52,374 nt of DNA from a virus: the IMG/VR virus record IMGVR_UViG_3300045988_166745, one strand, 5' to 3'. The notes beneath the pieces were generated by a model. The model saw only the letters and a program-made list of their open reading frames with translations, had not been told where the DNA came from and did not search any database. Below are positions 14,503 to 47,937 of the stretch, piece by piece (positions within the stretch are counted from its first letter, which is position 1; each line of letters opens with the position of its first letter). Position numbers and translations under genes: made by a program.

Positions 14503-14532
14503 AACAGCGGTTAAATTTCGTTTATAGGTAGC

Positions 14533-14570
14533 AAAAAACGCTCTTGAATGTGGGGTTCAGGAGCGCTTTT
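14533..14570. terminator. Bidirectional terminator between the endolysin and the minus-strand island
   Basis: GCTCTTGAA-tgtgggg-TTCAGGAGC flanked by an A-run and a T-run. Confidence 0.7.
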
Positions 14571-14578
14571 GCTAAAAT

Positions 14579-16313: not shown

Positions 16314-16314
16314 A

Positions 16315-17364: not shown

Positions 17365-17379
17365 TGTTTATCCCCCCCC

Positions 17380-17595
17380 TTATTCTTCATCTTTCATGAA
17401 TAGAAGATACGTTTCGACTCCAAGTGCATCCGCTATTTTTTGAATGTTGTCTAAGGCTATGCTACGTTTACCACATTCAATAGCACTGATATATGTTCTA
17501 TGTAAGCCAGCCATATCAGCAAATTTTTCTTGAGATACTCCAAGTATCTTTCTGTATTTTCTAAGATTATGTGAAAATACCTGAATTGCATCCAT
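17380..17595 (-). CDS. Controller (C) protein-like XRE HTH regulator
   Basis: 71 aa. LGVSQEKFADMAGLHRTYISAIECGKRSIALDNIQKIADAL resembles R-M controller proteins. It is the first gene of the operon. Confidence 0.7.
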   Translation of the reverse strand: MDAIQVFSHNLRKYRKILGVSQEKFADMAGLHRTYISAIECGKRSIALDNIQKIADALGVETYLLFMKDEE

Positions 17596-17613
17596 GTGCA
17601 ACACCTCTTTTTT

Positions 17614-17642
17614 ATTATACCACATTGACTACAATAAGTCAA
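17614..17642 (-). promoter_or_regulatory. Consensus promoter of the C-M-DUF262-HEPN operon, with a C-box-like dyad
   Basis: The minus strand reads TTGACT-TATTGTAGTCAATGTGG-TATAAT. The palindrome TTGACTTATTGTAGTCAA has GACT…AGTC half-sites, and CTTATTGTA is directly repeated just upstream. Confidence 0.7.
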
Positions 17643-17783
17643 CATACAATAAGTAACAGTTGCGAAAATGAACCTCTGATCTATTCTTTTTTATTTTTGC
17701 TTATATCTTTTTGTTACAAACCATAAACTACACAAATTACCAAAAAGTCGTTTGTGTACTGTTACAAACATCTCCAAACTAGC

Positions 17784-17812
17784 TTGACTATAGGTTTAAC
17801 TTATGGTATACT
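17784..17812 (+). promoter_or_regulatory. Promoter of cassette B (paralogue of 11791-11819)
   Basis: TTGACT-17 nt-TATACT. The spacer holds ATAGGTTTAACTTAT, a degenerate copy of the cassette A dyad. Confidence 0.7.
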
Positions 17813-17876
17813 GTGTACAGTGGATTAGGGGAGAACCTAGCCACGAATACCGGGGCAAGACGAGAAAGGAGGAAGC
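17813..17876 (+). promoter_or_regulatory. Conserved structured 5' leader of cassette B
   Basis: GUGG-AU-UAGG-GGAGAA-CCUA-G-CCAC, then GAAUACCGGGGCAAG … GAAAGGAGG. Confidence 0.5.
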
Positions 17877-18005
17877 ATGAAAGAGGACATGACACGGCTT
17901 GAACTTTTGACGCTTTTGCTTTCCATCAAAGCACTTTTGGAGAGTGACAACAAAGAAAAAGCCCTTGAACTGATTGACGAGGTCATTAAAGAGGCAAAGA
18001 AATAA
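17877..18005 (+). CDS. Small helical protein of cassette B (42 aa)
   Basis: AAAGGAGG lies 5 nt upstream of the ATG. Sequence MKEDMTRLELLTLLLSIKALLESDNKEKALELIDEVIKEAKK. Below the ORF-track size cutoff. Confidence 0.5.
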   Translation: MKEDMTRLELLTLLLSIKALLESDNKEKALELIDEVIKEAKK

Positions 18006-18831: not shown

Positions 18832-20124
18832 GTGATACAAAAAGTTGTATTTCCGCAGAAAAAGCAGTTTCCATTGAAACGAACGGCAGCCTATGCCAGA
18901 GTATCCAGCGGAAAGGATGCCATGCTCCATTCGCTATCATCACAGGTCAGTTACTACAATCAGCTGATTCAGAGCAATCCAGAATGGCTGTTCTGCGGTG
19001 TTTATGCAGATGAGGCACTGACCGGAACAAAAGGAAACCGGGCAGAGTTTCAAAAGTTGCTGAACCGATGCAGACAGGGAGAAATTGACTTGATTCTGAC
19101 AAAGTCTATTTCTCGTTTTGCACGAAACACGGTTACCCTGCTGGAAACGGTACGGGAACTGAAATCGCTGGGCGTTGATGTCTATTTTGAGGAACAGCGG
19201 ATTCATTCCATGAGTTCAGACGGCGAACTGATGCTTTCCATTCTGGCATCCTATGCACAGGAGGAGAGTTATTCAGCCAGTGAAAATCGAAAATGGCAAA
19301 TCCGAAAGGATTTCTCAATCGGAAAAATCGGTAGTATTACGATTTTGGGCTATCGCAGAAATGCAGAGGGAGTCTTGGAAATCGAACCGAATGAGGCAGA
19401 ACTTGTTCGCATGATTTTCTCAGATTATATTTCCGGTATGGGACAACAGAGAATCGCAAATAAGATCAACGAGATGGGAATACCAACTCGACAAGGGAAC
19501 CTATGGACAAACCCAAGAATTCGTGAAATTCTGACAAATGAAAAATACATCGGAAATCTCATGCTCCAAAAGTACTATCGCAATAACCATATCGAAAAGA
19601 AAAAAACGAGAAATCAGGGAGAACTTCCGAAATATTATGTAGAGGAAGCCCACGAGCCAATTATTGACCTTGAAACGTTTGCCAAAGCACAGGCTATATT
19701 GGCTCAGCGACATGAGCAATACACCCATGATGGTGCTACAAACCGTTATCCGCTTAGTGGTCTTATTACCTGTGGATTATGCGGAAAGAACTATCAACGA
19801 AAACAACTCCCACAGGGAATCATCTGGATGTGTGCCACTTTCTTGAGGCGAGGAAAAAAGTACTGCCCCGGTTCAAAGCAAATTCCGGAATCAATTCTAT
19901 ATGCTCTAATCTGTGATGTACTTAAATTGGATGAATTTGATGCGGCTGTATTTCGAGATAACATTCATCACATTGTGATTCCGAAACCGTTTGAGGTGCA
20001 GTTTTTCTTTCACGATGGAACATCTGATATACGGCATTGGAAATACCCATCAAGGGCAGAAAGCTGGACAGAGGAAATGAAACAAGCCGCACGAGAAAGG
20101 AATCAGAAATGGGTCGAAAAGTAA
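18832..20124 (+). CDS. Large serine recombinase 1
   Basis: Resolvase catalytic domain (AAYARVSSGKD…DLILTKSISRFARN…ESYSASENRKW), a recombinase domain and a zinc-ribbon region (CGLCGKNY…). The GTG start is uncertain. Confidence 0.85.
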   Translation: MIQKVVFPQKKQFPLKRTAAYARVSSGKDAMLHSLSSQVSYYNQLIQSNPEWLFCGVYADEALTGTKGNRAEFQKLLNRCRQGEIDLILTKSISRFARNTVTLLETVRELKSLGVDVYFEEQRIHSMSSDGELMLSILASYAQEESYSASENRKWQIRKDFSIGKIGSITILGYRRNAEGVLEIEPNEAELVRMIFSDYISGMGQQRIANKINEMGIPTRQGNLWTNPRIREILTNEKYIGNLMLQKYYRNNHIEKKKTRNQGELPKYYVEEAHEPIIDLETFAKAQAILAQRHEQYTHDGATNRYPLSGLITCGLCGKNYQRKQLPQGIIWMCATFLRRGKKYCPGSKQIPESILYALICDVLKLDEFDAAVFRDNIHHIVIPKPFEVQFFFHDGTSDIRHWKYPSRAESWTEEMKQAARERNQKWVEK

Positions 20125-21686
20125 CTGTAATACCGCCAACAATCAGTCTACAAACGCACCAGCCGACAACACAGAAAGTAAGGCGAAAAGTTGCCGGATA
20201 TGCACGTGTTTCTACAGATTTTGAGGAGCAGCTCACTTCCTACGAGGCACAGGTCGATTATTATACCAAGTATATTCAAGAGCGTGAGGACTGGGAGTTT
20301 GTCAAAGTCTATACCGATGAGGGCATCAGTGCAACCAGCACAGTGCATCGTGATGGATTCAATCAGATGGTGGCAGACGCTCTGGACGGCAAAATCGATT
20401 TGATTGTCACCAAGTCAGTCAGCCGGTTTGCACGAAACACCGTAGATTCCTTGACTACGGTGCGAAAGCTGAAAGAAAAAGGCGTGGAGGTGTTTTTTGA
20501 AAAAGAGGACATTTACACGCTGGATTCCAAAGGTGAACTGTTGATCACCATTATGTCCAGTCTGGCACAGGAGGAGAGCCGTTCCATTTCGGAGAACGTC
20601 ACTTGGGGGCAGAGAAAGCGTTTTGCCGATGGGAAAGTAAGTCTACCATACAAGCATTTTCTGGGGTATCGAAAAGGAGCGGATGGCTTGCCGGAAATTG
20701 TGCCGGAGGAGGCAGAAACTGTTCGCAGTATTTATCGCTGGTTTATGGAGGGCATGACACCATATAAAATCGCTTGTATTTTGATTGAAAAAGGCATTCC
20801 GACACCATCTGGGAAGGAACAGTGGCATCTCAGTACGGTGAAAAGCATTCTGACCAATGAAAAATACAAGGGTTCTGCTCTGCTGCAAAAGAAATTTACT
20901 GTGGATTTTCTTACGAAAAAGACCAAAGTGAATGAGGGTGAAGTACCCCAATATTATGTGGAAGAGAGCCACCCTGCTATTATTCCACCTGAGGAATTTG
21001 AATTGGTGCAGGCGGAAATGGCAAGGAGAAAAGAACTGGGAAAACGCTATCACAGCGGCAATATATTCACAGCCAAAATCGTCTGTGGCGAGTGTGGCGG
21101 TTTTTACGGTCCTAAGATTTGGCACTCTAATAGCCGTTACAGACGTGTGATATGGCGATGCAACAAGAAATATACGAATGATTGTTATTGCAAAACGCCG
21201 CATATTGATGAGGATACGATAAAGCAAGGCTTTTTGAAAGCCTATAATCAGCTACTTACTGATAAAGGGAGCATTTTGAGTCTTTGCGAGATGTTGCTGC
21301 GTGCTTTTTCAGACTGTTCAGATTTGGATGCGAAAATGAGTGTTCTGGATGATGAGGAAAAGCAGATCACAAAAAACATAAGAGAAATGGTTGTGATCAA
21401 TAGTCGAACGGTTCAAAAGCAACCAGAATATACGCTGGAGTACCAATCCTATGAGCGGGAGTACGAGGCGTTGAAAGCAAAATATCAGAAATTGCAGGCT
21501 GAAAAATTAGATCGCATAAATAAAACCACTGTGATCCAAGATTTCATGGAGCAGATAAAAAAGAGAAAAGAGCCGATTAAGGTTTTCAGTTCGGACGTAT
21601 GGCTTGCTGCAATTGAAACAGTGACCATCTGTGAAAAGGGAGAATTGCAATTTCGGTTTAAAAACGGTACTGAAATAACAGTTTGA
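20109..21686 (+). CDS. Large serine recombinase 2
   Basis: Start ATG 20109 overlaps gene 1 by 16 nt. AGYARVSTDFEEQ…DLIVTKSVSRFARN…ESRSISENVTWG, CGECGGFY zinc ribbon and a C-terminal coiled coil. Confidence 0.9.
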   Translation: MGRKVTVIPPTISLQTHQPTTQKVRRKVAGYARVSTDFEEQLTSYEAQVDYYTKYIQEREDWEFVKVYTDEGISATSTVHRDGFNQMVADALDGKIDLIVTKSVSRFARNTVDSLTTVRKLKEKGVEVFFEKEDIYTLDSKGELLITIMSSLAQEESRSISENVTWGQRKRFADGKVSLPYKHFLGYRKGADGLPEIVPEEAETVRSIYRWFMEGMTPYKIACILIEKGIPTPSGKEQWHLSTVKSILTNEKYKGSALLQKKFTVDFLTKKTKVNEGEVPQYYVEESHPAIIPPEEFELVQAEMARRKELGKRYHSGNIFTAKIVCGECGGFYGPKIWHSNSRYRRVIWRCNKKYTNDCYCKTPHIDEDTIKQGFLKAYNQLLTDKGSILSLCEMLLRAFSDCSDLDAKMSVLDDEEKQITKNIREMVVINSRTVQKQPEYTLEYQSYEREYEALKAKYQKLQAEKLDRINKTTVIQDFMEQIKKRKEPIKVFSSDVWLAAIETVTICEKGELQFRFKNGTEITV

Positions 21687-38870: not shown

Positions 38871-38943
38871 AATATCATAGAAAACTGACCGAAAGCCCTG
38901 TGGTATTCCGCATGGGCTTTCGTTGTATCCGGAGGTGAACCTT

Positions 38944-39294
38944 ATGCCAAGGAAGGCACTGAAACCATGCAAGCATCCCGGCTGTCCCAATCTGACAGAC
39001 GGCTTGTACTGTGCAGAGCATCAGCCCCTGCACCCAGACCGACCGTCTGCCGCCAAGCGTGGCTACGGCAGCAGGTGGCAAAGGCTCAGCAAGGCGTACC
39101 TCCACCGGCATCCTTTGTGTGTGCGTTGCAAAGCACAGGGACGGTTCACGGCAGCGACCGTGGTCGACCATATCATTCCTCACCGTGGTGATCCGCATCT
39201 GATGTGGGATGAAAGCAACTGGCAGGCGTTATGCAAGTCCTGCCACGACCGCAAGACATGGACGGAAGACCGAAATCCCGTCTATCGGTATTGA
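38944..39294 (+). CDS. HNH endonuclease (packaging-associated)
   Basis: GGAGGTG RBS. CKHPGCPNL…CAEH, VDHIIPHRGD…NWQALCKSCHDRKT. Confidence 0.9.
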   Translation: MPRKALKPCKHPGCPNLTDGLYCAEHQPLHPDRPSAAKRGYGSRWQRLSKAYLHRHPLCVRCKAQGRFTAATVVDHIIPHRGDPHLMWDESNWQALCKSCHDRKTWTEDRNPVYRY

Positions 39295-39477
39295 TTGTGT
39301 CTGAAATGCTTCCGGTGGGGGGATAAAAATCGCTAATTGTGAATTTTTTACAGACCGGCGTCCCCTCTCACACACAAAAATCAAGGTTCAAACGGTGGAT
39401 TAACCCAGGAAATATGCAAACAAGCCGAAACCTACGAAGTTTCGGCTATTTTTCTCTCAAAAGGCAGGTGAAATCAG

Positions 39478-40038
39478 ATGGCAAAGGACGGTACAAGAAG
39501 AGGCGGCAGACGAGTTCGTGCAGGCGATAAGCCGAAAGCCCTCTCCGACAAAATCGCAGAGGGCAAGGATGCAGATATTATGGAGTTTCATGCTCCGGAA
39601 TTGGACGCAGCTGATCTGGACGATGCCGCTGATTTGACCGGTGCGGATATGCCAAGCCCCAGTGCATACTTGTCTGCCCAGCAGAAGAACGGAAAACCGC
39701 TGGGAGCAGACATTGTATACAAAGAAACGTGGCTCTGGCTGAAACAGCGTGGCTGTGAAAAGCACGTCAACAAACGGCTGCTGGAAAGCTACTCGCAGGC
39801 ATTTGCTCGATTTGTACAGTGTGAAGAAGCCCTTAGTACCTATGGACTGCTGGGAAAACACCCGACTACCGGCGGCGTTATTGCCTCTCCGTTTGTGCAG
39901 ATGAGCCAGACATTTCAGAAACAGGCAAATTTGCTCTGGTATGAGATTTTCGATATTGTGAAACAGAACTGCACGACCAAATTTGACGGTACACCACAGG
40001 ATGATTTGATGGAACAGCTTCTGAGCAGCAGAAAGTGA
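39478..40038 (+). CDS. terS: Terminase small subunit (P27 family)
   Basis: …VYKETWLWLKQRGCEKHVNKRLLESYSQAFARFVQCEEALSTYGLLGKHPTTGGVIASPFVQM. Confidence 0.8.
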   Translation: MAKDGTRRGGRRVRAGDKPKALSDKIAEGKDADIMEFHAPELDAADLDDAADLTGADMPSPSAYLSAQQKNGKPLGADIVYKETWLWLKQRGCEKHVNKRLLESYSQAFARFVQCEEALSTYGLLGKHPTTGGVIASPFVQMSQTFQKQANLLWYEIFDIVKQNCTTKFDGTPQDDLMEQLLSSRK

Positions 40039-40044
40039 GGCAGC

Positions 40045-40203
40045 ATGAAAACAGATACCCAGTTCTGGCGAGATTTGAAAGCCAATCGCCAGAAGATGAC
40101 CAAACAGCAATACCGCACAATCAAAGGACAGGCGGTCAGCGGAAAAGTGCTAGATGCCAGAAAAGGCTTACAGAAAGTTTTGAAGCGGAGGAATGGAGCA
40201 TGA
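40045..40203 (+). CDS. Small basic protein (52 aa)
   Basis: GAGG RBS. MKTDTQFWRDLKANRQKMTKQQYRTIKGQAVSGKVLDARKGLQKVLKRRNGA. ATGA overlap with the next gene. Below the ORF-track cutoff. Confidence 0.45.
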   Translation: MKTDTQFWRDLKANRQKMTKQQYRTIKGQAVSGKVLDARKGLQKVLKRRNGA

Positions 40204-41459
40204 CCACAACTACAGAATTTCAGCTTGTTGATATCAACAAGTTAGTACCCTATGCCAATAACGCCAGAACCCACAACAAGGAACAGATCCTGAAGCTTCG
40301 TTCTTCTCTGCGTGAGTTTGGTTTTGTGAATCCGGTGATTATCGACCGGGAATACAATGTGCTGGCTGGACATGGACGCATTATGGCGGCAAAGGAAGAA
40401 GGTATTGCAGAAGTACCCTGTGTGTATGCCGACCATCTGACGGAAGCACAGAAGAAAGCGTACATTCTTGCTGACAACCGGATGGCATTGGATGCCGGCT
40501 GGGACGAAGAACTGCTGTCCGTTGAAATGCAGGAGTTGCAGGAGCTCGGATTCGACCTTTCCATGACCGGATTTGATGAAAAGGAACTGACAGATCTGCT
40601 GGGTGCGGATGCAGATGGCGAGGCAAAAGAGGATGACTTCGACCTGTCCACCGCCTTAGAAAAGGCTGCATTTGTACAGCGTGGCGATGTATGGACAGTT
40701 GGCAGACACAAGCTGATGTGTGGCGATGCCACATCTGCGGAGGATGTATCTGCTCTCATGGGCGACACCAAGGCAAACCTCATTCTGACCGATCCCCCAT
40801 ATGGCGTTTCGTTCAAGAGTGCCAGCGGTCTGACCATACAGAATGACAGCATGAAGAACGAAGAATTTTATACATTCCTGCTGTCCTCCTTTCAGCGAAT
40901 GGCAGAACATCTGGAAAAAGGCGGTTCTGCCTATGTGTTCCATGCAGATACGGAAGGGCTGAATTTCAGAAAAGCTTTCATTGATGCCGGATTTCATCTT
41001 GCAGGCTGCTGCATCTGGGTAAAGGATAGTCTTGTTTTGGGTCGCTCTGATTATCAGTGGCAGCACGAACCTGTGTTGTACGGCTTTATGCAAAATGGTA
41101 AGCATCACTGGTATTCCGACCGCAAGCAGACAACCATCTGGCATTTTGACAAGCCGAAACGCAATGCCAACCACCCCACCTCCAAGCCGCTGGACTTGCT
41201 TGGCTATCCCATCGGCAATTCTACACAGGAAAATGGCGTGGTAATGGATACCTTTGGCGGCAGCGGCTCTACCCTTATGGCGTGTGAGCAGATGAACCGC
41301 ATTTGCTACACCATGGAACTGGATGAAAAATATGCCTCGGTGATTCTTCGCCGGTATGTGGAAGATACGGGAAATGCCGATGGTGTGTATGTTATTCGTG
41401 ACGGGGAGCAGATCGCATATTCTGAACTGGTGAAAGAGGTGGAAAAGCCTGATGAATAA
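40200..41459 (+). CDS. ParB-like nuclease domain fused to an N6-adenine/N4-cytosine DNA methyltransferase
   Basis: Start MTTTTEFQLVDINKLVPYANNARTH (ParB N-terminal-like). LILTDPPYG (motif IV) and DTFGGSGSTLMA (motif I) give a beta-class order. Confidence 0.85.
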   Translation: MTTTTEFQLVDINKLVPYANNARTHNKEQILKLRSSLREFGFVNPVIIDREYNVLAGHGRIMAAKEEGIAEVPCVYADHLTEAQKKAYILADNRMALDAGWDEELLSVEMQELQELGFDLSMTGFDEKELTDLLGADADGEAKEDDFDLSTALEKAAFVQRGDVWTVGRHKLMCGDATSAEDVSALMGDTKANLILTDPPYGVSFKSASGLTIQNDSMKNEEFYTFLLSSFQRMAEHLEKGGSAYVFHADTEGLNFRKAFIDAGFHLAGCCIWVKDSLVLGRSDYQWQHEPVLYGFMQNGKHHWYSDRKQTTIWHFDKPKRNANHPTSKPLDLLGYPIGNSTQENGVVMDTFGGSGSTLMACEQMNRICYTMELDEKYASVILRRYVEDTGNADGVYVIRDGEQIAYSELVKEVEKPDE

Positions 41460-43194
41460 ACCTCTCACCCTTGGCAGTCTTTTCGATGGTTCAGGAACAT
41501 TTCCAATGATGGCTATGCTTGCAGGTATTATGCCTGTCTGGAAATCAGAAATTGAACCTTTTCCTATCGCTGTAACCGAAAAGCGACTGCCGTTTGTAAA
41601 GCACCTTGGTGACATCAACAGCATCAACGGTGCAAAAATAGAGCCTGTAGATATTATCACTTTTGGCTCACCCTGTACCGACCTTTCGGTTGCAGGAAAA
41701 CGTCAGGGCTTGAATGCAGAGCGTTCAGGACTTTTCTTTCAGGCAATCAGAATCATCAAAGAAATGAGAGGTGCAACCAATGGAAAATACCCAAGATTCG
41801 CAGTGTGGGAAAACGTCACAGGTGCTTTCTCCTCAAATGGCGGAGAAGACTTCCGATGCGTCCTCGAAGAACTCTGCAAAATCAAAAACACCAACGTTTC
41901 TGTCCCTAAACCTGAAAAGTGGACAAAAGCAGGAAATATCATGGGAGATGATTTCTCTCTCGCTTGGCGTACATTCGATGCTCAGTACTGGGGTGTACCC
42001 CAGAGAAGAATGCGTATCTACCTTGTCGCAGATTTTGCAGGCGGATGTGCCTCAAAAATATTATTTGAGTCAGAAGGCGTGTCTGGGTATTCTGCGGAGA
42101 GCTTCTGTTCGTGGAAAGAAACTGCCGGAGGTTTTGGAACTTGCTCTGAAGAAACAAGCACAGGGTTAGTTTTTTCAAATCACGGGCAAGATACACGATT
42201 TAAGGGTCCTGTTGAAGTAGCGGAAACAGTTTCTGCTACATATGGAACGGGCGGAAATAATCAGCCGTTTGTGGTGGAATCATCAGTTGTTCCTGCAACG
42301 CTGAAAATACGATGTGGTCACGGAAATGGTGGACGTGGTGCTTTGATTCAGGAAAATAAATCCGCTACTCTTTCCTGCAATAACGACCAGACACTTTTCG
42401 TTCCCAAGGCATATGGTATTTGCGGAAAATACAGCAATTCCATGCTGAGTAATAATCCGAACAGCGGATTTTATGAAGCTGAAACTTCCAGAACCATTGA
42501 TACCAGCAATCAGTCACCGTGTAAAAATCAAGGAGGCATGGTTGTTGTAGAAGGAAACGGCTCACGTCCTTCACATCATGGTGACGGGTACAAGAAATCG
42601 GAAACCATGTACACGCTGAATTGCACGGAAAACCATGCAGTTTCTTACAGCATTGGCAGACCTGCCATGAATCAGAGTTACAATGCACGATTCAGTTTTC
42701 AGGTGGGAGAAGAAAAATCTCCGACACTTGTTGCGTCGGGGGCTGGCGGAATCGCTCATCCGAAATACTCTACAAGTAAAAATTCTCGCCATACTGTTGC
42801 TGAAAAGGAAAAAGCAAATACACTTGTGGCATCGGACTACAAAGACCCTCCGGTTGTCAACGACAGCACTCCTGAAATTGAATACATCGTAAGACGACTG
42901 ACACCGCAAGAGTGTGCGTTACTGCAAGGTATGCCGACTTGGTGGTGTGATGATATCGGTATTAAAAATCCGACCGAAGAACAGATTACTTGGTGGCAGA
43001 ATGTTTTTGAAACATACAACAAAGCTGTCGGTAAGATCTGCAAGCCGAAATCTCACAAGCAGATTGAAAAATGGCTGAAAAACCCATATTCCGACAGTGC
43101 AGCTTATAAAATGTGGGGAAATGGTATCGCAGCTTGCAATGCTTGGTTTGTGTTTGCCGGAATTGCTTACTATGCACAAAATGAAAGGGAATAA
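41452..43194 (+). CDS. DNA (cytosine-5)-methyltransferase with a large variable insert
   Basis: LFDGSGTF (I), GSPCTDLS (IV), WENVTG (VI), VPQRRMRIYLV (VIII), MWGNGIA (X). About 250 aa lie between motifs VIII and IX. Confidence 0.85.
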   Translation: MNKPLTLGSLFDGSGTFPMMAMLAGIMPVWKSEIEPFPIAVTEKRLPFVKHLGDINSINGAKIEPVDIITFGSPCTDLSVAGKRQGLNAERSGLFFQAIRIIKEMRGATNGKYPRFAVWENVTGAFSSNGGEDFRCVLEELCKIKNTNVSVPKPEKWTKAGNIMGDDFSLAWRTFDAQYWGVPQRRMRIYLVADFAGGCASKILFESEGVSGYSAESFCSWKETAGGFGTCSEETSTGLVFSNHGQDTRFKGPVEVAETVSATYGTGGNNQPFVVESSVVPATLKIRCGHGNGGRGALIQENKSATLSCNNDQTLFVPKAYGICGKYSNSMLSNNPNSGFYEAETSRTIDTSNQSPCKNQGGMVVVEGNGSRPSHHGDGYKKSETMYTLNCTENHAVSYSIGRPAMNQSYNARFSFQVGEEKSPTLVASGAGGIAHPKYSTSKNSRHTVAEKEKANTLVASDYKDPPVVNDSTPEIEYIVRRLTPQECALLQGMPTWWCDDIGIKNPTEEQITWWQNVFETYNKAVGKICKPKSHKQIEKWLKNPYSDSAAYKMWGNGIAACNAWFVFAGIAYYAQNERE

Positions 43195-43285
43195 TTCTAC
43201 ACATCTCACAGTTGCTATCTGTGGGGAAAAGAGTTAACATATGTACTGCCGAAAGGTAAATCACCGAAAATCGGGAGGAAAACAT

Positions 43286-43954
43286 ATGATAATTGAATTT
43301 CATCTTGCAGGAGAAAATCGAAAGAAACTGGCATGGGCGATAGCCACGATCATTGGAACAACGGCAGAATATCAGTATATGCCCACCTGTGCCTATAAAA
43401 TCGGGGAATGCTATACCGTTACCAAGTCCGGTGATCTGGAAATCAGTGACCAAGCCGACCATAAGGAAACAGAACGGCTTCTTGCCGAACTGGCAAGTCG
43501 GGGCTATGCTGTTCCGGACACCACAGAACCAGAATCCAAGGGCTTGACGGTGCAGATGCCAGCCGATTTCTTCACGGAGCATACGCTCGGTAATCTCCGG
43601 CAAATCTGCGAAAACAAGGTTGCCCTTTTTCAGGCAGCTTTTCAAACCGACTGTTTGGACATCATTCCGTCTGATGAAAAGGTGGAATTTCCATGGTTCA
43701 CGGTCGAACAGGACGGCGATGCAGATGCCTACTGCACCTTCATTTCCATGCTCTGCGAATTTGCCAAGAACCAGAGCCGCATCAACCGCAAGCCGGACAC
43801 CTCCGACAATCCCAAGTATACCATGCGGTGTTTCCTGATTCGTCTGGGAATGGTGGGTGCAGAATTCAAGGCGGCAAGAAAGGTCATTCTTCGGCATCTG
43901 TCCGGCAATTCCGCATTCAGAAAGGTTGGTGATACTGATGCAGTTTCCGAGTGA
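43286..43954 (+). CDS. ICE/phage 'virulence protein'-type protein. Shares a C-terminal motif with the amidoligase
   Basis: GGGAGG RBS lies 7 nt upstream. C-terminus DNPKYTMRCFLIRLGMVGAEFKAARKVILRHLSGNSAFRK. Confidence 0.65.
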   Translation: MIIEFHLAGENRKKLAWAIATIIGTTAEYQYMPTCAYKIGECYTVTKSGDLEISDQADHKETERLLAELASRGYAVPDTTEPESKGLTVQMPADFFTEHTLGNLRQICENKVALFQAAFQTDCLDIIPSDEKVEFPWFTVEQDGDADAYCTFISMLCEFAKNQSRINRKPDTSDNPKYTMRCFLIRLGMVGAEFKAARKVILRHLSGNSAFRKVGDTDAVSE

Positions 43955-44174
43955 ATCATATCTGGAACAGCTGCGAAAAAAGTACCCTGTCGGAACGAAA
44001 TTACAGCTGATTTCTATGCGAAATGAAACATATCCGGTTCTTCCCGGAACAGTCGGCGAGGTCACGCATATTGACGATGCGGGCAGCATTCATATGCGGT
44101 GGGAAAACGGTTCTTCCCTTGCTCTGATTCCTGAAATCGACAGTTTCCAGACCGTATCCGAGGCGAAAAAATAA
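43938..44174 (+). CDS. DUF4314-domain protein
   Basis: YPVGTKLQLISMRNETYPVLPGTVGEVTHIDDAGSIHMRWENGSSLALIPEIDSF. Confidence 0.65.
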   Translation: MQFPSESYLEQLRKKYPVGTKLQLISMRNETYPVLPGTVGEVTHIDDAGSIHMRWENGSSLALIPEIDSFQTVSEAKK

Positions 44175-44413
44175 GGCGAAACCTCCTCCATTGTACGATA
44201 TGTTACCATACAATCGCAAGAATTGCAAGAGTGTATTCTACACAATCTTTTGACCTCATTTTCTGTAGATTTAGCCACTTGCTATCTCCTCCGTTTAGAG
44301 TTAATATGGTTACAACAAAAGGGGTGCGGGTTGCCAGTGGCAACCTCTGCGAAGCAGAAGCACCGACCGAGGCGACAGCCGAGACAAAGCCCGAAACTAC
44401 GGAGGAAAACATT

Positions 44414-45352
44414 ATGAACGCTAAAACAGAAAGACAGATTGAAAACCTGAAAAATCAGACCATCGGGGTTGAAATTGAGATGAACCACATCACAAGAGAG
44501 CGAGCTGCAAAGCTTGCCGCAGACTTTTTCGGAACAGGCAGATACGAATTCACAGCAAGCCGAAACGGCTACAGCACTTGGTCGGCATGGGATGCACAGG
44601 GCAGAGAATGGAAATTCCAGAAAGACGTCAGCATTGCAGGATGCGATGCCGAAAAGTGCGAACTGGTCACGCCGATTCTGAAATACGAGGACATTGAAAC
44701 CTTGCAGGAACTGGTCAGAAAGCGCAAAGCCGGAGCAATCAGCCATGCAGGCATCGGAGCCGGAGTACACATTCACATCGGTGCCAACGGACACACACCG
44801 CAAACCCTGCGAAACCTCGCCAACCTTATGGCGAGCCACGAACGGCTGATTGCAGATGCCCTGAAAATCGACCAAGGCAGAATGAACCGATATTGCAGAA
44901 CGGTCAATCCCCAATTCATCGAACAGCTGAACCGAAAAAAGCCCACCAACATGGCACAGTTCGCAGACATCTGGTATACGGCGAACGGTGCAAATTACGG
45001 CAGAAATCAGCACTACAACGACAGCCGATACCATATGCTGAACTTCCATGCCACCTTTACAAAGGGAACAATCGAATTCAGACTTTTCCAGTTTGACAAG
45101 CCTACAGCTGAAAAGAAAAATGGACTCCATGCAGGACAATTGAAAAGTTACATTCAGCTTTGCCTTGCCCTTTCCGAAATGGCAAAGGGACTGCGAACCG
45201 CCAGCCCGAAACCACAGCAAACGGAAAACCCGAAATTCGCAATGCGAACATGGCTGATTCGGCTGGGGCTAGTTGGCGAGGAGTTCGCCACCGCCAGAAC
45301 GTTCCTTACCAGAAACTTGGACGGCGATGCAGCTTTCCGGTTCGGCAGATAA
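44414..45352 (+). CDS. Amidoligase (Amidoligase_2, glutamine synthetase-like fold) family protein
   Basis: GGAGG lies 8 nt upstream. QTIGVEIEMNHITRERAAKLAADFFG…WKFQKDVSI…CELVTPILKYEDIETLQELV…GVHIHIG…HYNDSRYHMLNFHATFTKGTIEFRLF. The C-terminal ENPKFAMRTWLIRLGLVGEEFATAR motif is also present. Confidence 0.75.
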   Translation: MNAKTERQIENLKNQTIGVEIEMNHITRERAAKLAADFFGTGRYEFTASRNGYSTWSAWDAQGREWKFQKDVSIAGCDAEKCELVTPILKYEDIETLQELVRKRKAGAISHAGIGAGVHIHIGANGHTPQTLRNLANLMASHERLIADALKIDQGRMNRYCRTVNPQFIEQLNRKKPTNMAQFADIWYTANGANYGRNQHYNDSRYHMLNFHATFTKGTIEFRLFQFDKPTAEKKNGLHAGQLKSYIQLCLALSEMAKGLRTASPKPQQTENPKFAMRTWLIRLGLVGEEFATARTFLTRNLDGDAAFRFGR

Positions 45353-45442
45353 AGGGACAGCCTTTTGCTACCAGCTACACCAGACCGCTTCGGCGGTCTT
45401 ATGGTGGTGAAAGGGTATCCCTTTCAGAAAGGATTTGATTGC

Positions 45443-45907
45443 ATGAAAAAGTTTTACCTTGCCTATGGCAGCAATCTGAACGTGAAACAGATGCAGTTCC
45501 GCTGCCCGGATGCCAAAATTGTGGGAACTGCGGAGATTCCAAATTACCAGCTGCTGTTCAAAGGCAGCAAGACCGGCTCCTATCTGACCATCGAACCCAA
45601 GCAGGGCTGTACCGTTCCGGCGGCAGTGTGGTCGGTGTCGGAACGAGATGAACTCGCTCTTGACCGCTATGAGGGGTATCCTCATTTCTACTACAAAACG
45701 GAACTGGAACTTCCCCTTGCCGAAACCGGAAAAAAGCTGACCGCCTTTGTGTACATCATGCACGAGGAACGGAAACTGGGCATCCCCACTTCTGCCTACA
45801 TCCGCACCTGTGTGGACGGATACCGCCAGTTCGGCTTTGACCTGAAACACCTGCAGAAAGCCATGGACATCAGCGAACGGGAGGTGTACCACCATGAAAA
45901 CGGATAA
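45443..45907 (+). CDS. Gamma-glutamylcyclotransferase (AIG2/GGCT-like)
   Basis: YLAYGSNLNVKQMQFRCPDAKIVGTAEIPNYQLLF…ALDRYEGYPHFYYK. Confidence 0.8.
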   Translation: MKKFYLAYGSNLNVKQMQFRCPDAKIVGTAEIPNYQLLFKGSKTGSYLTIEPKQGCTVPAAVWSVSERDELALDRYEGYPHFYYKTELELPLAETGKKLTAFVYIMHEERKLGIPTSAYIRTCVDGYRQFGFDLKHLQKAMDISEREVYHHENG

Positions 45908-46094
45908 GCCAGTTTCGGCAATCTGCCCACTTTGCGGAAAATCCTACTCCGGTGTGCCGGCACTTTCCAGAACGGACAACCAAACGACCATTTGCCCGGA
46001 CTGCGGCATTCGGCAGGCACTGGAAAGCATCGGTGTTTCCACGGAGGAACGGGAGAAAATCCTGTCTGTAATGCACCGAAAGTTCCCCATGTAA
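45894..46094 (+). CDS. Small zinc-ribbon protein
   Basis: ICPLCGKSYSGVPALSRTDNQTTICPDCGIRQAL. Confidence 0.6.
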   Translation: MKTDKPVSAICPLCGKSYSGVPALSRTDNQTTICPDCGIRQALESIGVSTEEREKILSVMHRKFPM

Positions 46095-46195: not shown

Positions 46196-46291
46196 AGTTA
46201 TAAATTCCACAAGCCGGAGCCGAAAGGCTCTGGCGGTCGTACCAAACATGGCAAACAGGTCACATCTGCACGCCATGACCATGATTTTCAA

Positions 46292-46316
46292 AGACTTGCT
46301 TCGGCAGGTCTTTTTT
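46292..46316 (+). terminator. Intrinsic terminator 17 nt upstream of the terL start
   Basis: AGACTTGC-TTCG-GCAGGTCT followed by TTTTTT. Confidence 0.7.
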
Positions 46317-46332: not shown

Positions 46333-47937
46333 ATGCGAAAACTGAAAGGCTATAAACCCACAAAATTTATGGCGGAAGATTCGCATTATAATAAAAAAGC
46401 GGCAGATTATGCCGTGAATTTTATCGAATGCCTGTGTCATACAAAAGGTACATGGGCAGGAAAAAAGTTTGAACTGATTGATTGGCAAGAACGGATCATA
46501 CGAGATATATTTGGTGTGCTGAAACCGAATGGCTATCGTCAGTTTAACACAGCTTACGTAGAAATTCCGAAAAAGCAAGGCAAATCAGAACTCGCTGCTG
46601 CGGTTGCTCTGCTGCTTACTTGCGGTGATGGCGAAGAACGTGCCGAAGTTTACGGCTGTGCTGCCGACCGCCAACAGGCCGCCATTGTATTTGACGTAGC
46701 AGCGGATATGGTGCGAATGTGTCCTGCCCTTTCCAAACGAGTGAAAATCCTGACCTCACAAAAGCGTATCGTGTATATTCCGACCAACAGCTTCTATCAG
46801 GTGCTTTCGGCAGAGGCATATTCCAAGCATGGTTTCAACATCCATGGAGTGGTGTTCGATGAACTGCATACGCAGCCAAACCGAAAGCTCTTTGATGTTA
46901 TGACCAAAGGTTCTGGTGATGCCAGAATGCAGCCTTTGTATTTTCTCATCACCACGGCTGGGACGGACACGCATTCTATTTGTTATGAAACGCATCAAAA
47001 GGCAAAAGATATTTTGGAAGGCAGAAAAATCGATCCAACATTCTATCCTGTGATTTACGGTGCAGATGAATCTGAAGACTGGACTTCTCCAGAAGTTTGG
47101 AAAAAAGCAAATCCCTCTCTTGGCATTACTGTCGGAATGGATAAAGTTGAAGCTGCTTGCAATTCTGCCAGACAAAATCCGGGTGAAGAGAACGCATTCC
47201 GACAACTGCGTTTGAATCAGTGGGTAAAACAGTCTGTTCGATGGATGCCAATGGAAAAATGGGATGCTTGTAATGCTCCTGTAATTCCAGAATTCCTTCG
47301 TGGAAGAATCTGCTACGGTGGACTTGACCTTTCCAGTACTACGGATATTACAGCTTTTGTTTTGGTGTTCCCTCCAACAGACGATGATGAGATATATTCT
47401 GTTTTGCCTTACTTCTGGCTGCCGGAGGAAACACTGCCCCTCAGAGTAAGACGTGACCATGTTCCATATGATGTATGGGAACGGCAAGGCTACCTGAAAA
47501 CGACTGAGGGAAATGTGGTTCACTATGGTTTTATCGAAAACTTCATTGAAGAACTGGGACAGAAGTTTCACATCAAAGAAATTGCTTTTGACCGTTGGGG
47601 TGCAGTGCAGATGTCGCAAAACTTAGAAGATTTGGGATTTACCTTAGTACAGTTTGGGCAGGGATATAAGGATATGAGTCCGCCCACCAAAGAACTGATG
47701 AAGCTGACATTGGAGAAAAAAATAGCACATGGTGGTCAGCCGGTTCTTCGTTGGATGATGGACAACATCTTCATCAAGCGAGATCCTGCCGGAAATATCA
47801 AGCCGGACAAAGAAAAATCCACAGAGAAGATTGACGGTGCGGTTGCCATGATTATGGCTCTTGACCGTGCAATTCGCTGTGGATGTACTGGGGATGGAAC
47901 AAGTGTTTATGACGAAAGAGATATGTTGATTTTGTAA
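46333..47937 (+). CDS. terL: Terminase large subunit
   Basis: 534 aa. GAGGTGAG RBS. …VEIPKKQGKSELAAAVALLL… and VVFDELH (Walker-type). C-terminal nuclease half with DGAVAMIMAL. Confidence 0.9.
   Translation: MRKLKGYKPTKFMAEDSHYNKKAADYAVNFIECLCHTKGTWAGKKFELIDWQERIIRDIFGVLKPNGYRQFNTAYVEIPKKQGKSELAAAVALLLTCGDGEERAEVYGCAADRQQAAIVFDVAADMVRMCPALSKRVKILTSQKRIVYIPTNSFYQVLSAEAYSKHGFNIHGVVFDELHTQPNRKLFDVMTKGSGDARMQPLYFLITTAGTDTHSICYETHQKAKDILEGRKIDPTFYPVIYGADESEDWTSPEVWKKANPSLGITVGMDKVEAACNSARQNPGEENAFRQLRLNQWVKQSVRWMPMEKWDACNAPVIPEFLRGRICYGGLDLSSTTDITAFVLVFPPTDDDEIYSVLPYFWLPEETLPLRVRRDHVPYDVWERQGYLKTTEGNVVHYGFIENFIEELGQKFHIKEIAFDRWGAVQMSQNLEDLGFTLVQFGQGYKDMSPPTKELMKLTLEKKIAHGGQPVLRWMMDNIFIKRDPAGNIKPDKEKSTEKIDGAVAMIMALDRAIRCGCTGDGTSVYDERDMLIL

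What the first reader, a model, noticed from the sequence alone, without database searches (positions are those of the whole stretch)
43286..46094. Amidoligase, gamma-glutamylcyclotransferase, DUF4314 and a partner protein sharing a C-terminal tag, inside the packaging operon
Seen:
- Five co-directional genes are present.
- 43286-43954 encodes an ICE-type 'virulence protein'.
- 43938-44174 encodes a DUF4314 protein.
- 44414-45352 encodes an amidoligase (GVEIEMN…, GVHIHIG, TIEFRLF).
- 45443-45907 encodes a GGCT/AIG2-like protein (YGSNL…).
- 45894-46094 encodes a CxxC…CxxC zinc ribbon.
- The first protein and the amidoligase end in the same roughly 40-aa motif: DNPKYTMRCFLIRLGMVGAEFKAARKVILRHLSGNSAFRK versus ENPKFAMRTWLIRLGLVGEEFATARTFLTRNLDGDAAFRF.

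Established: the Amidoligase_2 family (glutamine-synthetase-like fold) and its linkage to GGCT-like and amidotransferase genes in phages and conjugative elements was predicted computationally (Iyer, Abhiman, Burroughs and Aravind 2009, recalled). To my knowledge no substrate or phenotype is known.

Inference: the ligase and cyclotransferase look like a writer/eraser pair for a gamma-glutamyl-type or peptide tag on a protein, or for a small-molecule conjugate. It may act during establishment or virion assembly, or as a counter-defence. The shared C-terminal module could dock both proteins on a common target or partner.
Basis: partly seen in the sequence, partly recalled or inferred. Interest (0 to 1): 0.8.

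Follow-up and report, generated by a model that had tools for sequence, protein, structure and literature searches.

The report
Phage amidoligase cassette with dead paralogue
A gut-bacterial prophage carries, between its two DNA-packaging genes, a glutamine-synthetase-like ligase paired with a gamma-glutamyl cyclotransferase, plus a catalytically dead copy of the same ligase, so the "shared C-terminal tag" is really the best-preserved part of a gene duplicate; the target is still unknown.

Summary
All five genes are real, at the stated coordinates. They lie between the small and large terminase genes of a Heliusvirales-type Ruminococcus prophage. Amidoligase_2, GGACT/AIG2 and DUF4314 are profile-supported, and the catalytic residues of the ligase and the cyclotransferase are intact.

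The shared C-terminal similarity is real (43% over 69 aa, E 1e-16), but it is not a portable tag. The "virulence protein" is homologous to the amidoligase along its whole length. It has lost every catalytic residue and about 60 residues of the active-site region, so it is a pseudo-amidoligase.

Across 60 species-level loci the layout is nested:
- The pseudo-ligase and DUF4314 form a near-constant pair with overlapping reading frames (52/60 adjacent).
- Amidoligase and cyclotransferase (plus a zinc ribbon) form an optional cassette. The cyclotransferase is present in 33/33 loci with the ligase and 0/27 without.

The same genes also sit next to relaxase and coupling-protein genes in integrative mobile elements.

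A gamma-glutamyl ligation and removal pair is chemically coherent but untested, and I could not identify a target. The ligase–cyclotransferase link was already predicted in 2009. The dead paralogue and the nested architecture appear to be new. Interest is moderate.

The parts
39423..39447 (+). Terminator-like hairpin just upstream of the small terminase gene; left border of the TerS-to-zinc-ribbon block
   Evidence: Consensus scan: 9-bp stem with a T run. Pattern match only.
39478..40038 (+). Terminase small subunit
   Evidence: Pfam Terminase_4, E 5.1e-6. Conserved at this position in 80 related loci.
40035..41459 (+). ParB-N domain fused to an N6/N4 DNA methyltransferase
   Evidence: Pfam N6_N4_Mtase E 5.8e-25 and ParB_N E 1.1e-6. 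A methylase lies upstream of protein A in 53 of 65 loci with at least 4 kb of upstream sequence.
41452..43194 (+). C5 cytosine DNA methyltransferase
   Evidence: Pfam DNA_methylase, E 5.5e-35.
43286..43954 (+). Protein A: catalytically dead, shortened paralogue of the amidoligase (pseudo-amidoligase; annotated 'virulence-related protein' in relatives)
   Evidence: Homology: PHROG 2443 'amidoligase' E 1.1e-52. hhalign against amidoligases gives probability 99.95, E 2.6e-38, aligning A 1-222 with ligase 12-312. The N-terminal parts alone give E 1.3e-9. Family member P0235 passes the Pfam Amidoligase_2 cutoff.
Catalysis: the equivalents of the catalytic residues are not conserved.
Structure: AF2 pLDDT 93, with secondary-structure elements in the same order as the ligase.
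43715..43921 (+). C-terminal three-helix module of protein A (residues 144-212), shared with the amidoligase
   Evidence: BLASTP E 1e-16. Helices 145-162, 176-187 and 192-202 in the model. This is the most conserved part of the A family.
43938..44174 (+). DUF4314 protein; its start overlaps the end of gene A by 17 nt
   Evidence: Pfam DUF4314, E 2.9e-28. Adjacent to A in 52/60 loci. The frames overlap in 60/65 pairs, 40 of them by exactly 17 nt. In-frame A-DUF4314 fusion in L110.
44414..45352 (+). Amidoligase_2 enzyme with a glutamine-synthetase/gamma-glutamylcysteine-ligase-like fold
   Evidence: Pfam E 6.4e-52. E20, E22, H119, H121, R205, Y206, N210 and R223 are invariant, and E221 is present in 37 of 38 sequences. 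AF2 pLDDT 86.8, pTM 0.88. Foldseek hits: GshF 3ln7_B E 8.5e-5, Dop, and many glutamine synthetases.
45134..45340 (+). C-terminal three-helix module of the amidoligase (residues 241-309)
   Evidence: BLASTP alignment. Helices 240-259, 273-283 and 289-300. Present in 79/79 divergent amidoligases of this subfamily.
45443..45907 (+). Gamma-glutamyl cyclotransferase-fold enzyme (GGACT/AIG2-like)
   Evidence: Pfam GGACT E 2.3e-14. Human GGCT 2pn7 E 1.5e-7, with YGSNL and the catalytic Glu aligned. AYGSNL and YEG are at least 95% conserved in 38 sequences. Follows the ligase in 33/33 loci.
45894..46094 (+). Small CPxCG...CPDCG zinc-ribbon protein; its start overlaps the end of the cyclotransferase gene by 14 nt
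   Evidence: PHROG 2945, E 8e-21. Conserved motif CP.CG..Y.G.PA.SR.DN.T.ICPDCGTREALESIGV. Present in 25/33 cassette loci and never without the ligase. Frames overlap in 28/28 pairs.
46290..46313 (+). Terminator-like hairpin between the zinc-ribbon gene and TerL
   Evidence: Consensus scan: 10-bp stem with TTTTGTTG tail. Pattern match only.
46333..47937 (+). Terminase large subunit
   Evidence: Pfam TerL_nuclease E 1.1e-46 and TerL_ATPase E 1.2e-21.

Best explanation
The block is a two-layer accessory module of the DNA-transfer operons of Bacillota phages (Heliusvirales type) and small integrative mobile elements.

Layer 1 (near-constant). This is a non-catalytic pair: protein A and a DUF4314 protein. 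Their reading frames overlap, so they are probably translationally coupled. A is a full-length paralogue of the amidoligase. It has lost the metal-, ATP- and substrate-binding residues and about 60 residues of the active-site region. It keeps the scaffold, an invariant Arg-Lys at the start of the first helix, and the basic C-terminal three-helix module.

Layer 2 (optional cassette). This comprises an active glutamine-synthetase-fold ligase, a gamma-glutamyl-cyclotransferase-fold enzyme and a small zinc-ribbon protein.

Shown: the homology of A to the ligase, the loss of catalytic residues in A, the intact catalytic residues in the ligase and the cyclotransferase, the predicted folds, the gene overlaps and the co-occurrence.

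Inferred:
- The ligase uses ATP to join a glutamate-type carboxylate to an amine on a still unknown acceptor, which could be a protein amino group or a small amine such as a polyamine.
- The cyclotransferase removes that group again as 5-oxoproline.
- The dead paralogue, with DUF4314, binds rather than modifies the same partner through the surfaces it has retained.
- The 'shared tag' is therefore the slowest-decaying part of a duplicated enzyme, possibly because it is the partner-binding or assembly surface.
For: Homology of A to the ligase:
- hhalign E 2.6e-38 over the full length.
- E 1.3e-9 for the N-terminal 140 versus 238 residues, with the module removed.
- An A-family member reaches 33.6 bits on Pfam Amidoligase_2, above the cutoff of 22.
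- The A N-terminal HMM hits a phage amidoligase at E 2.6e-9.
- Both proteins fall in PHROG 2443.
- Secondary-structure elements match one to one, except that ligase residues 154-216 are missing in A.
- The top BFVD structural matches of the A model are phage amidoligases, though weak (best E 0.04).

Dead versus live:
- Eight catalytic-type positions are invariant in 38 ligases and E221 is present in 37 of 38.
- At the six equivalents that still exist in A, the 81 A proteins have K/N/E/R, N, T/C/I/V/S, S/E/Q/A, S/E/R.. and P. The other three positions (R205, Y206, N210) lie in the segment deleted from A.

Folds:
- The ligase model matches the GshF gamma-GCL domain (E 8.5e-5), Dop and glutamine synthetases.
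- The cyclotransferase matches human GGCT with its catalytic Glu aligned.

Architecture:
- Synteny TerS-MTase(s)-A-DUF4314-[ligase-GGCT-ZnR]-TerL in 80 species loci.
- DUF4314 is adjacent to A in 52/60 loci. GGCT is present in 33/33 loci with the ligase and 0/27 without. The zinc ribbon is present in 25/33 and never alone.
- Gene overlaps: 60/65 for A/DUF4314 and 28/28 for GGCT/zinc ribbon.
- In-frame A-DUF4314 fusion in L110.
- A distant ligase branch still has GGCT downstream in 37/44 loci and the module in 79/79 ligases.

The module is not promiscuous:
- Of the 150 best representatives, 67 are A-type, 25 are ligase-type, 41 are shorter than 150 aa and matched neither N-terminal profile (probably partial ORFs from short contigs) and 17 are other proteins of 150 aa or more. 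I read five such odd-N-terminus hits and took them for chimeric or fused calls; two of them were later counted as ligase-type and one is short.
- The module is terminal in 137/155 hits.
- Mean pairwise identity is 64% for the module against 41% for the rest of A. In the ligase it is 67% against 63%.

Mobile-element context: coupling protein, Replic_Relax relaxase and serine recombinases flank the genes in L123 and L105.
Against: - No substrate, product or phenotype is known. I found no experimental paper on this family.
- A writer and an eraser co-expressed from one operon would form a futile cycle unless they are separated in time, space or specificity.
- A occurs without the ligase in 27/60 loci and in Streptococcus phages. 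The ligase occurs without A, in only 14/44 loci of a distant branch and in NatCom_2329 and NatCom_34063. A is therefore not an obligate subunit of the ligase.
- DUF4314 is broader still. It is in 159 phage records, many with no A or ligase at all, so it is not a dedicated partner.
- The Foldseek search of the A model against PDB found nothing significant.
- The gamma-glutamyl chemistry rests on fold analogy and on my recollection of characterised enzymes with these folds.
Confidence: 0.6

Rival explanations
1. Portable docking tag. An otherwise unrelated 'virulence protein' and the ligase each acquired the same roughly 40-70-aa C-terminal module, which docks both on a common target.
For: The module is the only similarity BLASTP detects. 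It is the most conserved region of the A family. It is rich in invariant basic residues shared by both families.
Against: Homology extends over the whole length, and also holds when the module is removed. Among the 150 best of 2558 representative clusters, the identifiable full-length proteins carrying the module are A-type or ligase-type, and the other hits I inspected look chimeric or partial. It is present in 79/79 ligases of a distant branch, so it is an integral part of this ligase subfamily.
Confidence: 0.08
2. DNA hypermodification. The ligase and cyclotransferase build or trim an amino-acid-derived adduct on phage or element DNA before transfer, alongside the adjacent methyltransferases, to evade restriction.
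For: The block lies directly downstream of two DNA methyltransferases and upstream of TerL in 53/65 loci. It also lies next to relaxase genes in mobile elements. Amidoligase and amidotransferase genes were reported to co-occur with thymidine-hypermodification genes in viral contigs, function unknown (PMC8989533).
Against: The 19 window ORFs I scanned with Pfam show no dUMP hydroxymethylase, 5-HMUDK kinase, aGPT-Pplase or TET/JBP gene. About 40 ORFs of the window, including several of the replication region, were not scanned. Normal bases offer no good amine acceptor. The strict pairing with a cyclotransferase that would remove a gamma-glutamyl group does not fit a stable DNA mark.
Confidence: 0.08
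3. Control of the polyamine or small-amine pool at packaging or transfer. The ligase gamma-glutamylates putrescine, spermidine or a similar amine (as PuuA/GlnA3-type enzymes do). The GGACT-like enzyme releases it. Together they tune the free polycations that accompany DNA condensation.
For: The best Pfam match of the cyclotransferase is the GGACT (gamma-glutamylamine) family. The ligase has a glutamine-synthetase-type fold. The block sits in the packaging operon. From memory, glutamine-synthetase-like enzymes that gamma-glutamylate polyamines are well characterised.
Against: There is no direct evidence. The closest solved sequence relative of the cyclotransferase is human GGCT, not GGACT. This reading does not explain the pseudo-ligase, DUF4314 or the zinc ribbon. 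The cassette is dispensable in 45% of related phages.
Confidence: 0.1
4. Auxiliary metabolic genes or a futile-cycle toxin. The pair simply alters host glutamate, 5-oxoproline or nitrogen metabolism (as annotation pipelines label them), or burns ATP and glutamate as an abortive-infection or exclusion device of the prophage.
For: PHROG files the cyclotransferase under 'moron, auxiliary metabolic gene and host takeover'. A prophage survey lists both genes as 'host metabolism, phage defence' (PMC11318856). A ligase plus a cyclotransferase together amount formally to Glu + ATP -> 5-oxoproline.
Against: The block is embedded in the late packaging unit, bracketed by terminator-like hairpins, with no better-than-chance internal promoter. 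It has no PADLOC match. The same cassette sits beside relaxase genes in mobile elements. It is linked to a conserved dead paralogue, which a metabolic role does not explain.
Confidence: 0.08

Closest known systems
Amidoligase_2 (PF12224), the glutamine-synthetase-like COOH-NH2 ligases of phages and conjugative elements predicted by Iyer, Abhiman, Burroughs and Aravind 2009 (paper not readable here; cited via PMC11318856)
   Same: Gene 44414-45352 is a clear member (Pfam E 6.4e-52). It has a glutamine-synthetase/GCL-like predicted fold, is linked to a GGCT-like gene, and resides in both phages and integrative mobile elements.
   Different: This subfamily carries a constant C-terminal three-helix extension outside the Pfam model. 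It is accompanied in many loci by a catalytically dead paralogue plus DUF4314. I found no description of either feature.
PafA / Dop of the pupylation system (glutamine-synthetase-fold ligase and its paralogue acting on the small protein Pup)
   Same: The enzyme fold is the same; Dop is the second-best structural match of the ligase model (9cku_G, E 6e-3). Two paralogues with the same fold are encoded together with a small protein.
   Different: Dop is an active deamidase/depupylase, whereas protein A lacks all catalytic residues. DUF4314 has no conserved C-terminal Glu/Gln and has variable tails, so it does not look like a Pup-type tag. Here removal would be done by a GGCT-fold enzyme, not by a paralogue.
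BtrJ / BtrG of butirosin biosynthesis (gamma-glutamylation as a transient protecting group, removed by a GGCT-like cyclotransferase; recalled from memory)
   Same: An ATP-dependent ligase adds a gamma-glutamyl group to an amine, and an AIG2/GGCT-fold enzyme later removes it as 5-oxoproline. This is the same logic proposed here for the strictly linked pair.
   Different: BtrJ is an ATP-grasp enzyme, not glutamine-synthetase-fold. The butirosin pair sits in a large biosynthetic cluster with carrier protein and transferase. No such genes are present here.
Gamma-glutamylamine pathways: PuuA/GlnA3-type gamma-glutamyl-polyamine synthetases and GGACT (recalled from memory)
   Same: A glutamine-synthetase-fold ligase acting on an amine, and a GGACT-family cyclotransferase that frees the amine.
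   Different: The cellular enzymes are catabolic, are not encoded as a pair, and are large glutamine-synthetase-type oligomers. The phage ligase is a 312-aa minimal version, related only at fold level (TM about 0.3-0.4).

Membership tests
Amidoligase_2 (PF12224): gene 44414-45352 | Scores above the curated Pfam threshold | tested here: met
   177.3 bits against a cutoff of 22, E 6.4e-52, profile positions 1-244 of 245.
Amidoligase_2 (PF12224): gene 44414-45352 | Conserved ExE, HxH and ExR catalytic-type motifs of the glutamine-synthetase-like cradle | tested here: met
   E20, E22, H119, H121, R205, Y206, N210 and R223 are invariant in 38 sequences; E221 is present in 37 of 38.
Amidoligase_2 (PF12224): gene 44414-45352 | Glutamine-synthetase/gamma-glutamylcysteine-ligase-like fold | tested here: met
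   AF2 pLDDT 86.8, pTM 0.88. Foldseek: GshF 3ln7_B E 8.5e-5 (probability 1.00), Dop E 6e-3, about 20 glutamine synthetase chains. TM-scores are low (0.3-0.4), so this is fold-level only.
Amidoligase_2 (PF12224): gene 44414-45352 | ATP-dependent carboxylate-amine ligase activity | not testable with these tools
   No biochemical data for any member were found in the library.
Amidoligase_2: protein A, 43286-43954 | Scores above the curated Pfam threshold | tested here: not met
   The window protein matches no Pfam family. 4 of 39 family members match at E <= 1, and only P0235 passes the cutoff (33.6 bits).
Amidoligase_2: protein A, 43286-43954 | Homology to the family over the catalytic domain | tested here: met
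   hhalign E 2.6e-38 over the full length and E 1.3e-9 for the N-terminal parts only. Secondary-structure order is matched.
Amidoligase_2: protein A, 43286-43954 | Catalytic residues present | tested here: not met
   The equivalents of E20, E22, H119, H121, E221 and R223 are variable or non-catalytic in 81 sequences. The segment carrying R205, Y206 and N210 is deleted. A is therefore a homologue, but not an enzyme of the family.
GGCT / GGACT (AIG2-like): gene 45443-45907 | Pfam threshold, YGSNL motif and catalytic glutamate | tested here: met
   PF06094 scores 54.4 bits against a cutoff of 22.8. Aligned with human GGCT, the glutamate of 'YEG' matches the position that is Gln in the variant chain 3cry. 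AYGSNL and YEG are at least 95% conserved.
DUF4314 (PF14192): gene 43938-44174 | Pfam threshold | tested here: met
   98 bits against a cutoff of 27.
Pup-like or ubiquitin-like protein tagging system | A small tag protein with a conserved C-terminal residue that is ligated | tested here: not met
   The C-termini of DUF4314 proteins are variable in length and sequence. The zinc-ribbon tails are also variable.
Thymidine hypermodification gene cluster (5-HMUDK / aGPT-Pplase type) | Presence of dUMP hydroxymethylase, 5-hmdU kinase or aGPT-Pplase near the amidoligase | tested here: not met
   None of the 19 window ORFs scanned with Pfam is such a gene. Small ORFs and several larger ones were not scanned.
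Ca. Heliusvirales prophage (context) | The marker genes named in PMC9226167 (DUF2800, DUF2815, PolA, VRR-NUC, SNF2, TerL, portal, ClpP, MCP) | tested here: inconclusive
   DUF2800, the SNF2 helicase and TerL were found by Pfam. The portal is assigned by position and by phmmer matches to ORFs at the portal position in related loci. The best DNA relatives are deposited Heliusvirales genomes. The other markers were not scanned.

The most novel reading that the evidence does not exclude
The module is a reversible gamma-glutamyl-type protein-modification system of phages and integrative elements of gut Bacillota. The cyclotransferase resets the mark. This would be a glutamine-synthetase-fold writer, pseudo-enzyme reader and GGCT eraser triad not described so far.
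Probability: 0.15. Interest if true: 0.8.

Novelty: new variant of a known kind. Interest (0 to 1): 0.5.

Why it matters
These genes are extremely common in human-gut metagenomes. The 90%-identity clusters hold about 4,700 (protein A), 10,700 (ligase) and 4,800 (cyclotransferase) sequences. They sit in a phage order reported as widespread across human populations (PMC11283538; PMC9226167).

From my own recollection, the link between amidoligase and cyclotransferase has been an unexplained prediction since 2009; I could not read that paper here.

Recognising the 'virulence protein' as a dead copy of the ligase removes a misleading annotation. It also explains the 'shared tag'. And it splits the block into experimentally separable units:
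- the A + DUF4314 pair alone, as in Streptococcus phages;
- the ligase + cyclotransferase + zinc ribbon alone, as in NatCom_2329.

If the pair does write and erase a gamma-glutamyl mark on a protein or a polyamine during DNA packaging or transfer, that would be a new kind of phage-encoded modification chemistry.

Tried and rejected
- Foldseek of the protein A model against PDB found no significant match. Against BFVD, amidoligases rank top but only weakly, so this is supporting evidence, not proof.
- Sequence searches of PDB with A, the ligase, a 38-sequence ligase profile, DUF4314 and the zinc ribbon gave nothing meaningful. The C2H2 'CPECGKSFS' hits to the zinc ribbon are motif-level only.
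- NCBIfam and PADLOC gave no usable match for any of the five proteins.
- DUF4314 as a Pup-like tag: rejected, because it has no conserved C-terminus.
- DUF4314 as a dedicated partner of amidoligase-fold proteins: weakened. 159 phage records carry it against 67 with the module, and Streptococcus suis-type phages have it with no A or ligase even at E <= 10.
- Many IMG/VR contigs ending just after the ligase suggested a genome terminus. The ends are in fact scattered over 45263-45880, so this is assembly breakage in a mosaic region.
- Concerted evolution or co-adaptation of the two modules within a locus: within-locus identity is 40.5% against 39.0% between loci. This is significant by permutation (p 0.0003), but amounts to about one residue, too small to interpret.
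- Plasmids: only 5 of 72,556 records have a relative.
- Rfam and tRNA scans of the window were empty.
- Literature searches for amidoligase, Amidoligase_2, DUF4314 and GGCT in phages found no experimental work. The 2009 paper itself is not held.

Full report
**What is there**

The window holds a prophage. Its integration end is near a serine recombinase at 20037-21686. Its replication module (DUF2800 nuclease, primase, SNF2 helicase) is typical of Ca. Heliusvirales. The nearest deposited genomes are Ruminococcus phages of that order, and the proteins are common in Ruminococcus assemblies.

Between the small terminase (39478-40038) and the large terminase (46333-47937) lie seven co-directional genes:
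- a ParB-N6/N4 methylase;
- a C5 methylase;
- the five genes of the finding.

All five ORFs are at the stated coordinates and have plausible ribosome-binding sites. Two pairs overlap: A/DUF4314 by 17 nt and cyclotransferase/zinc ribbon by 14 nt. Terminator-like hairpins lie just before TerS (39423) and just before TerL (46290). These are pattern matches only.

**Family assignments**

- Pfam supports DUF4314 (E 2.9e-28), Amidoligase_2 (E 6.4e-52) and GGACT/AIG2 (E 2.3e-14).
- An AlphaFold2 model of the ligase (pLDDT 86.8, pTM 0.88) matches the gamma-glutamylcysteine-ligase domain of GshF (E 8.5e-5), the depupylase Dop and many glutamine synthetases. This confirms the glutamine-synthetase-like fold at fold level.
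- In 38 ligases from different species, E20, E22, H119, H121, R205, Y206, N210 and R223 are invariant, and E221 is present in 37.
- The cyclotransferase aligns with human GGCT, including YGSNL and the catalytic glutamate. Both are at least 95% conserved in 38 relatives.
- The zinc-ribbon protein is a well-conserved small family (PHROG 2945; motif CP.CG..Y.G.PA.SR.DN.T.ICPDCGTREALESIGV).

**The 'shared C-terminal tag'**

The similarity is real: 30/69 identical, E 1e-16. But it is the visible tip of full-length homology.
- PHROGs places both proteins in one family.
- I searched 1.84 billion representative proteins with the module alone and found 2558 clusters.
- Among the best 150 hits, 67 are A-type, 25 are ligase-type, 41 are shorter than 150 aa and matched neither N-terminal profile (probably partial ORFs from short contigs) and 17 are other proteins of 150 aa or more. 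I read five hits with odd N-termini and took them for chimeric or fused calls; two of these were later counted as ligase-type and one is short.
- The module is terminal in 137/155 hits.
- A 39-sequence alignment of the A family aligns to amidoligases with hhalign probability 99.95, E 2.6e-38, matching A 1-222 to ligase 12-312.
- With the module cut away, the N-terminal parts still align at E 1.3e-9.
- One A-family member passes the Pfam Amidoligase_2 threshold.
- An HMM of the A N-terminus hits a phage amidoligase at E 2.6e-9.

The two AlphaFold2 models have the same order of strands and helices, except that ligase residues about 154-216 are absent from A.

At the positions equivalent to the catalytic residues, the 81 A proteins have K/N/E/R, N, T/C/I/V/S, S/E/Q/A, S/E/R... 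and P. An earlier one-column slip in my mapping of the HxH motif was corrected.

Protein A is therefore a dead, shortened paralogue: a pseudo-amidoligase. In the ligase family, the module and the rest are about equally conserved (67% and 63%). In the A family, the module stays at 64% while the rest has drifted to 41%. That is why only the C-terminus looks alike by eye.

**Architecture across genomes**

I seeded a search of one genome per species with the A family. It returned 80 loci at 35-88% identity. The recurrent order is TerS - ParB-methylase - (C5 methylase) - A - DUF4314 - [ligase - cyclotransferase - zinc ribbon] - TerL - portal.

Of the 60 loci with at least 4 kb downstream of A:

| Feature | Count |
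|---|---|
| DUF4314 adjacent to A | 52 |
| Ligase present | 33 |
| Cyclotransferase, in loci with the ligase | 33/33 |
| Cyclotransferase, in loci without the ligase | 0/27 |
| Zinc ribbon, in loci with the ligase | 25/33 |
| Zinc ribbon without the ligase | 0 |

Further points:
- The A stop and the DUF4314 start overlap in 60/65 pairs. The cyclotransferase stop and the zinc-ribbon start overlap in 28/28.
- One genome (L110) has an in-frame A-DUF4314 fusion.
- A second search was seeded with a distant ligase (35-55% identity). All 79 ligases found carry the module. The cyclotransferase follows in 37/44 loci with adequate flanks. A is present in only 14/44.
- Some phages have the ligase cassette with DUF4314 but no A.
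- Streptococcus Javan phages, phi1605 and a Gardnerella phage have A without the cassette.
- Many Streptococcus phages have DUF4314 with neither A nor the ligase.

So there are three nested layers. DUF4314 is the broadest. A and/or the ligase form the next layer. The ligase is tied to the cyclotransferase.

The genes also occur outside phages. In L123 and L105 they lie between a type IV coupling protein, a Replic_Relax relaxase and two serine recombinases, which is an integrative mobilisable or conjugative element. They are rare on plasmids.

**How it most likely works**

Shown:
- an intact glutamine-synthetase-fold ligase;
- an intact GGCT-fold enzyme almost always encoded immediately after it;
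- a dead paralogue, with DUF4314 encoded in an overlapping frame.

Inferred:
- From my recollection, the characterised enzymes of the ligase's fold activate a glutamate gamma-carboxylate: glutamine synthetase, gamma-glutamylcysteine ligase, PuuA and PafA.
- GGCT-fold enzymes cleave gamma-glutamyl amides by cyclisation to 5-oxoproline.
- The simplest chemistry is therefore ATP-dependent gamma-glutamylation of an amine, followed by its removal.

The acceptor is unknown. The position beside methylases and DNA-translocation genes, in both phages and mobile elements, suggests a role tied to DNA transfer or establishment. That is context, not evidence.

The dead paralogue keeps an invariant Arg-Lys at the first helix and the basic C-terminal helices. 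It probably binds something, possibly the same partner as the ligase, rather than catalysing anything. It is not an obligate ligase subunit, because each occurs without the other.

**Rivals**

I considered four alternatives: a portable docking tag, DNA hypermodification, polyamine control, and a metabolic or toxic futile cycle. Each is listed with its evidence.
- None of the 19 window ORFs I scanned with Pfam is a thymidine-hypermodification gene. Amidoligases have been reported next to such genes elsewhere (PMC8989533).
- No defence-system profile matches.

**Comparison with what is known, and novelty**

The linkage of Amidoligase_2 with GGCT in phages and conjugative elements is an existing computational prediction (Iyer et al. 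2009). I could not read that paper here; it is cited in PMC11318856. I found no experimental study.

As far as the searchable literature shows, the following are new:
- recognition of the 'virulence-related protein' as a pseudo-amidoligase;
- its conserved, frame-overlapping pairing with DUF4314;
- the nested, modular distribution.

The finding is a new variant of a known, uncharacterised kind. Interest is moderate: the genes are very widespread in gut phages and the chemistry may be new, but no mechanism is demonstrated.

Noticed in passing
window 43274-43285 and 44401-44412: The same 12-nt ribosome-binding context, GGAGGAAAACAT, precedes the start codons of protein A and of the amidoligase. 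It could be a relic of the duplication or just a strong shared Shine-Dalgarno sequence.
   Followed up: no
window 44175-44413: The 240-nt non-coding gap between DUF4314 and the amidoligase contains a perfect hairpin, GGTTGCC-AGT-GGCAACC. There is no Rfam match. In cassette-less relatives, this is where the optional cassette is missing.
   Followed up: no
window ~38900-39031, ~43200, 46061, 46187, 47886: Close IMG/VR relatives (85-99% identical ligase) repeatedly lose homology to the window at these points. Many contigs also break between 45263 and 45880. These look like mosaic module borders rather than a genome terminus.
   Followed up: partly
L110:9995-10915; P0094: L110 encodes an in-frame fusion of the pseudo-amidoligase with DUF4314. 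The NCBI protein P0094 looks like a frameshift read-through from A into the DUF4314 frame.
   Followed up: partly
L107, L117, L122, L149, L153, L157, L160, L166 (the DUF4314 genes): A long form of DUF4314 carries a conserved C-terminal extension (VTCYG..W.SR.EA..F....M..SEGSE) of unknown nature.
   Followed up: no
P0179, P0170 (A-family representatives): Some pseudo-amidoligases duplicate the N-terminal beta-alpha-beta unit. P0179 also ends in its own CxxC...CxxC ribbon.
   Followed up: no
L100, L118, L119, L161 (between DUF4314 and TerL): Loci without the cassette carry one or both of two other small conserved ORFs there. One is about 60 aa with '..ILAIR.TG.TNMFD..'. The other is about 74 aa starting 'MW.EGS.KV...IIHYWVK'.
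   Followed up: no
L165 (phage NatCom_18656) 6253-9466: The gene order is rearranged here: a divergent 323-aa pseudo-amidoligase that keeps the central insert, then ligase, cyclotransferase and zinc ribbon, and only then DUF4314. TerS lies directly before TerL.
   Followed up: partly
window 14001-18000: GC content drops to 0.36, against about 0.46 elsewhere, over minus-strand genes just left of the prophage's serine recombinase. This may be a separate island or cargo region.
   Followed up: no
window 41452-43194: The C5 methyltransferase is unusually long (580 aa). Its Pfam match is split in two stretches, which implies a large insertion between the catalytic halves.
   Followed up: no
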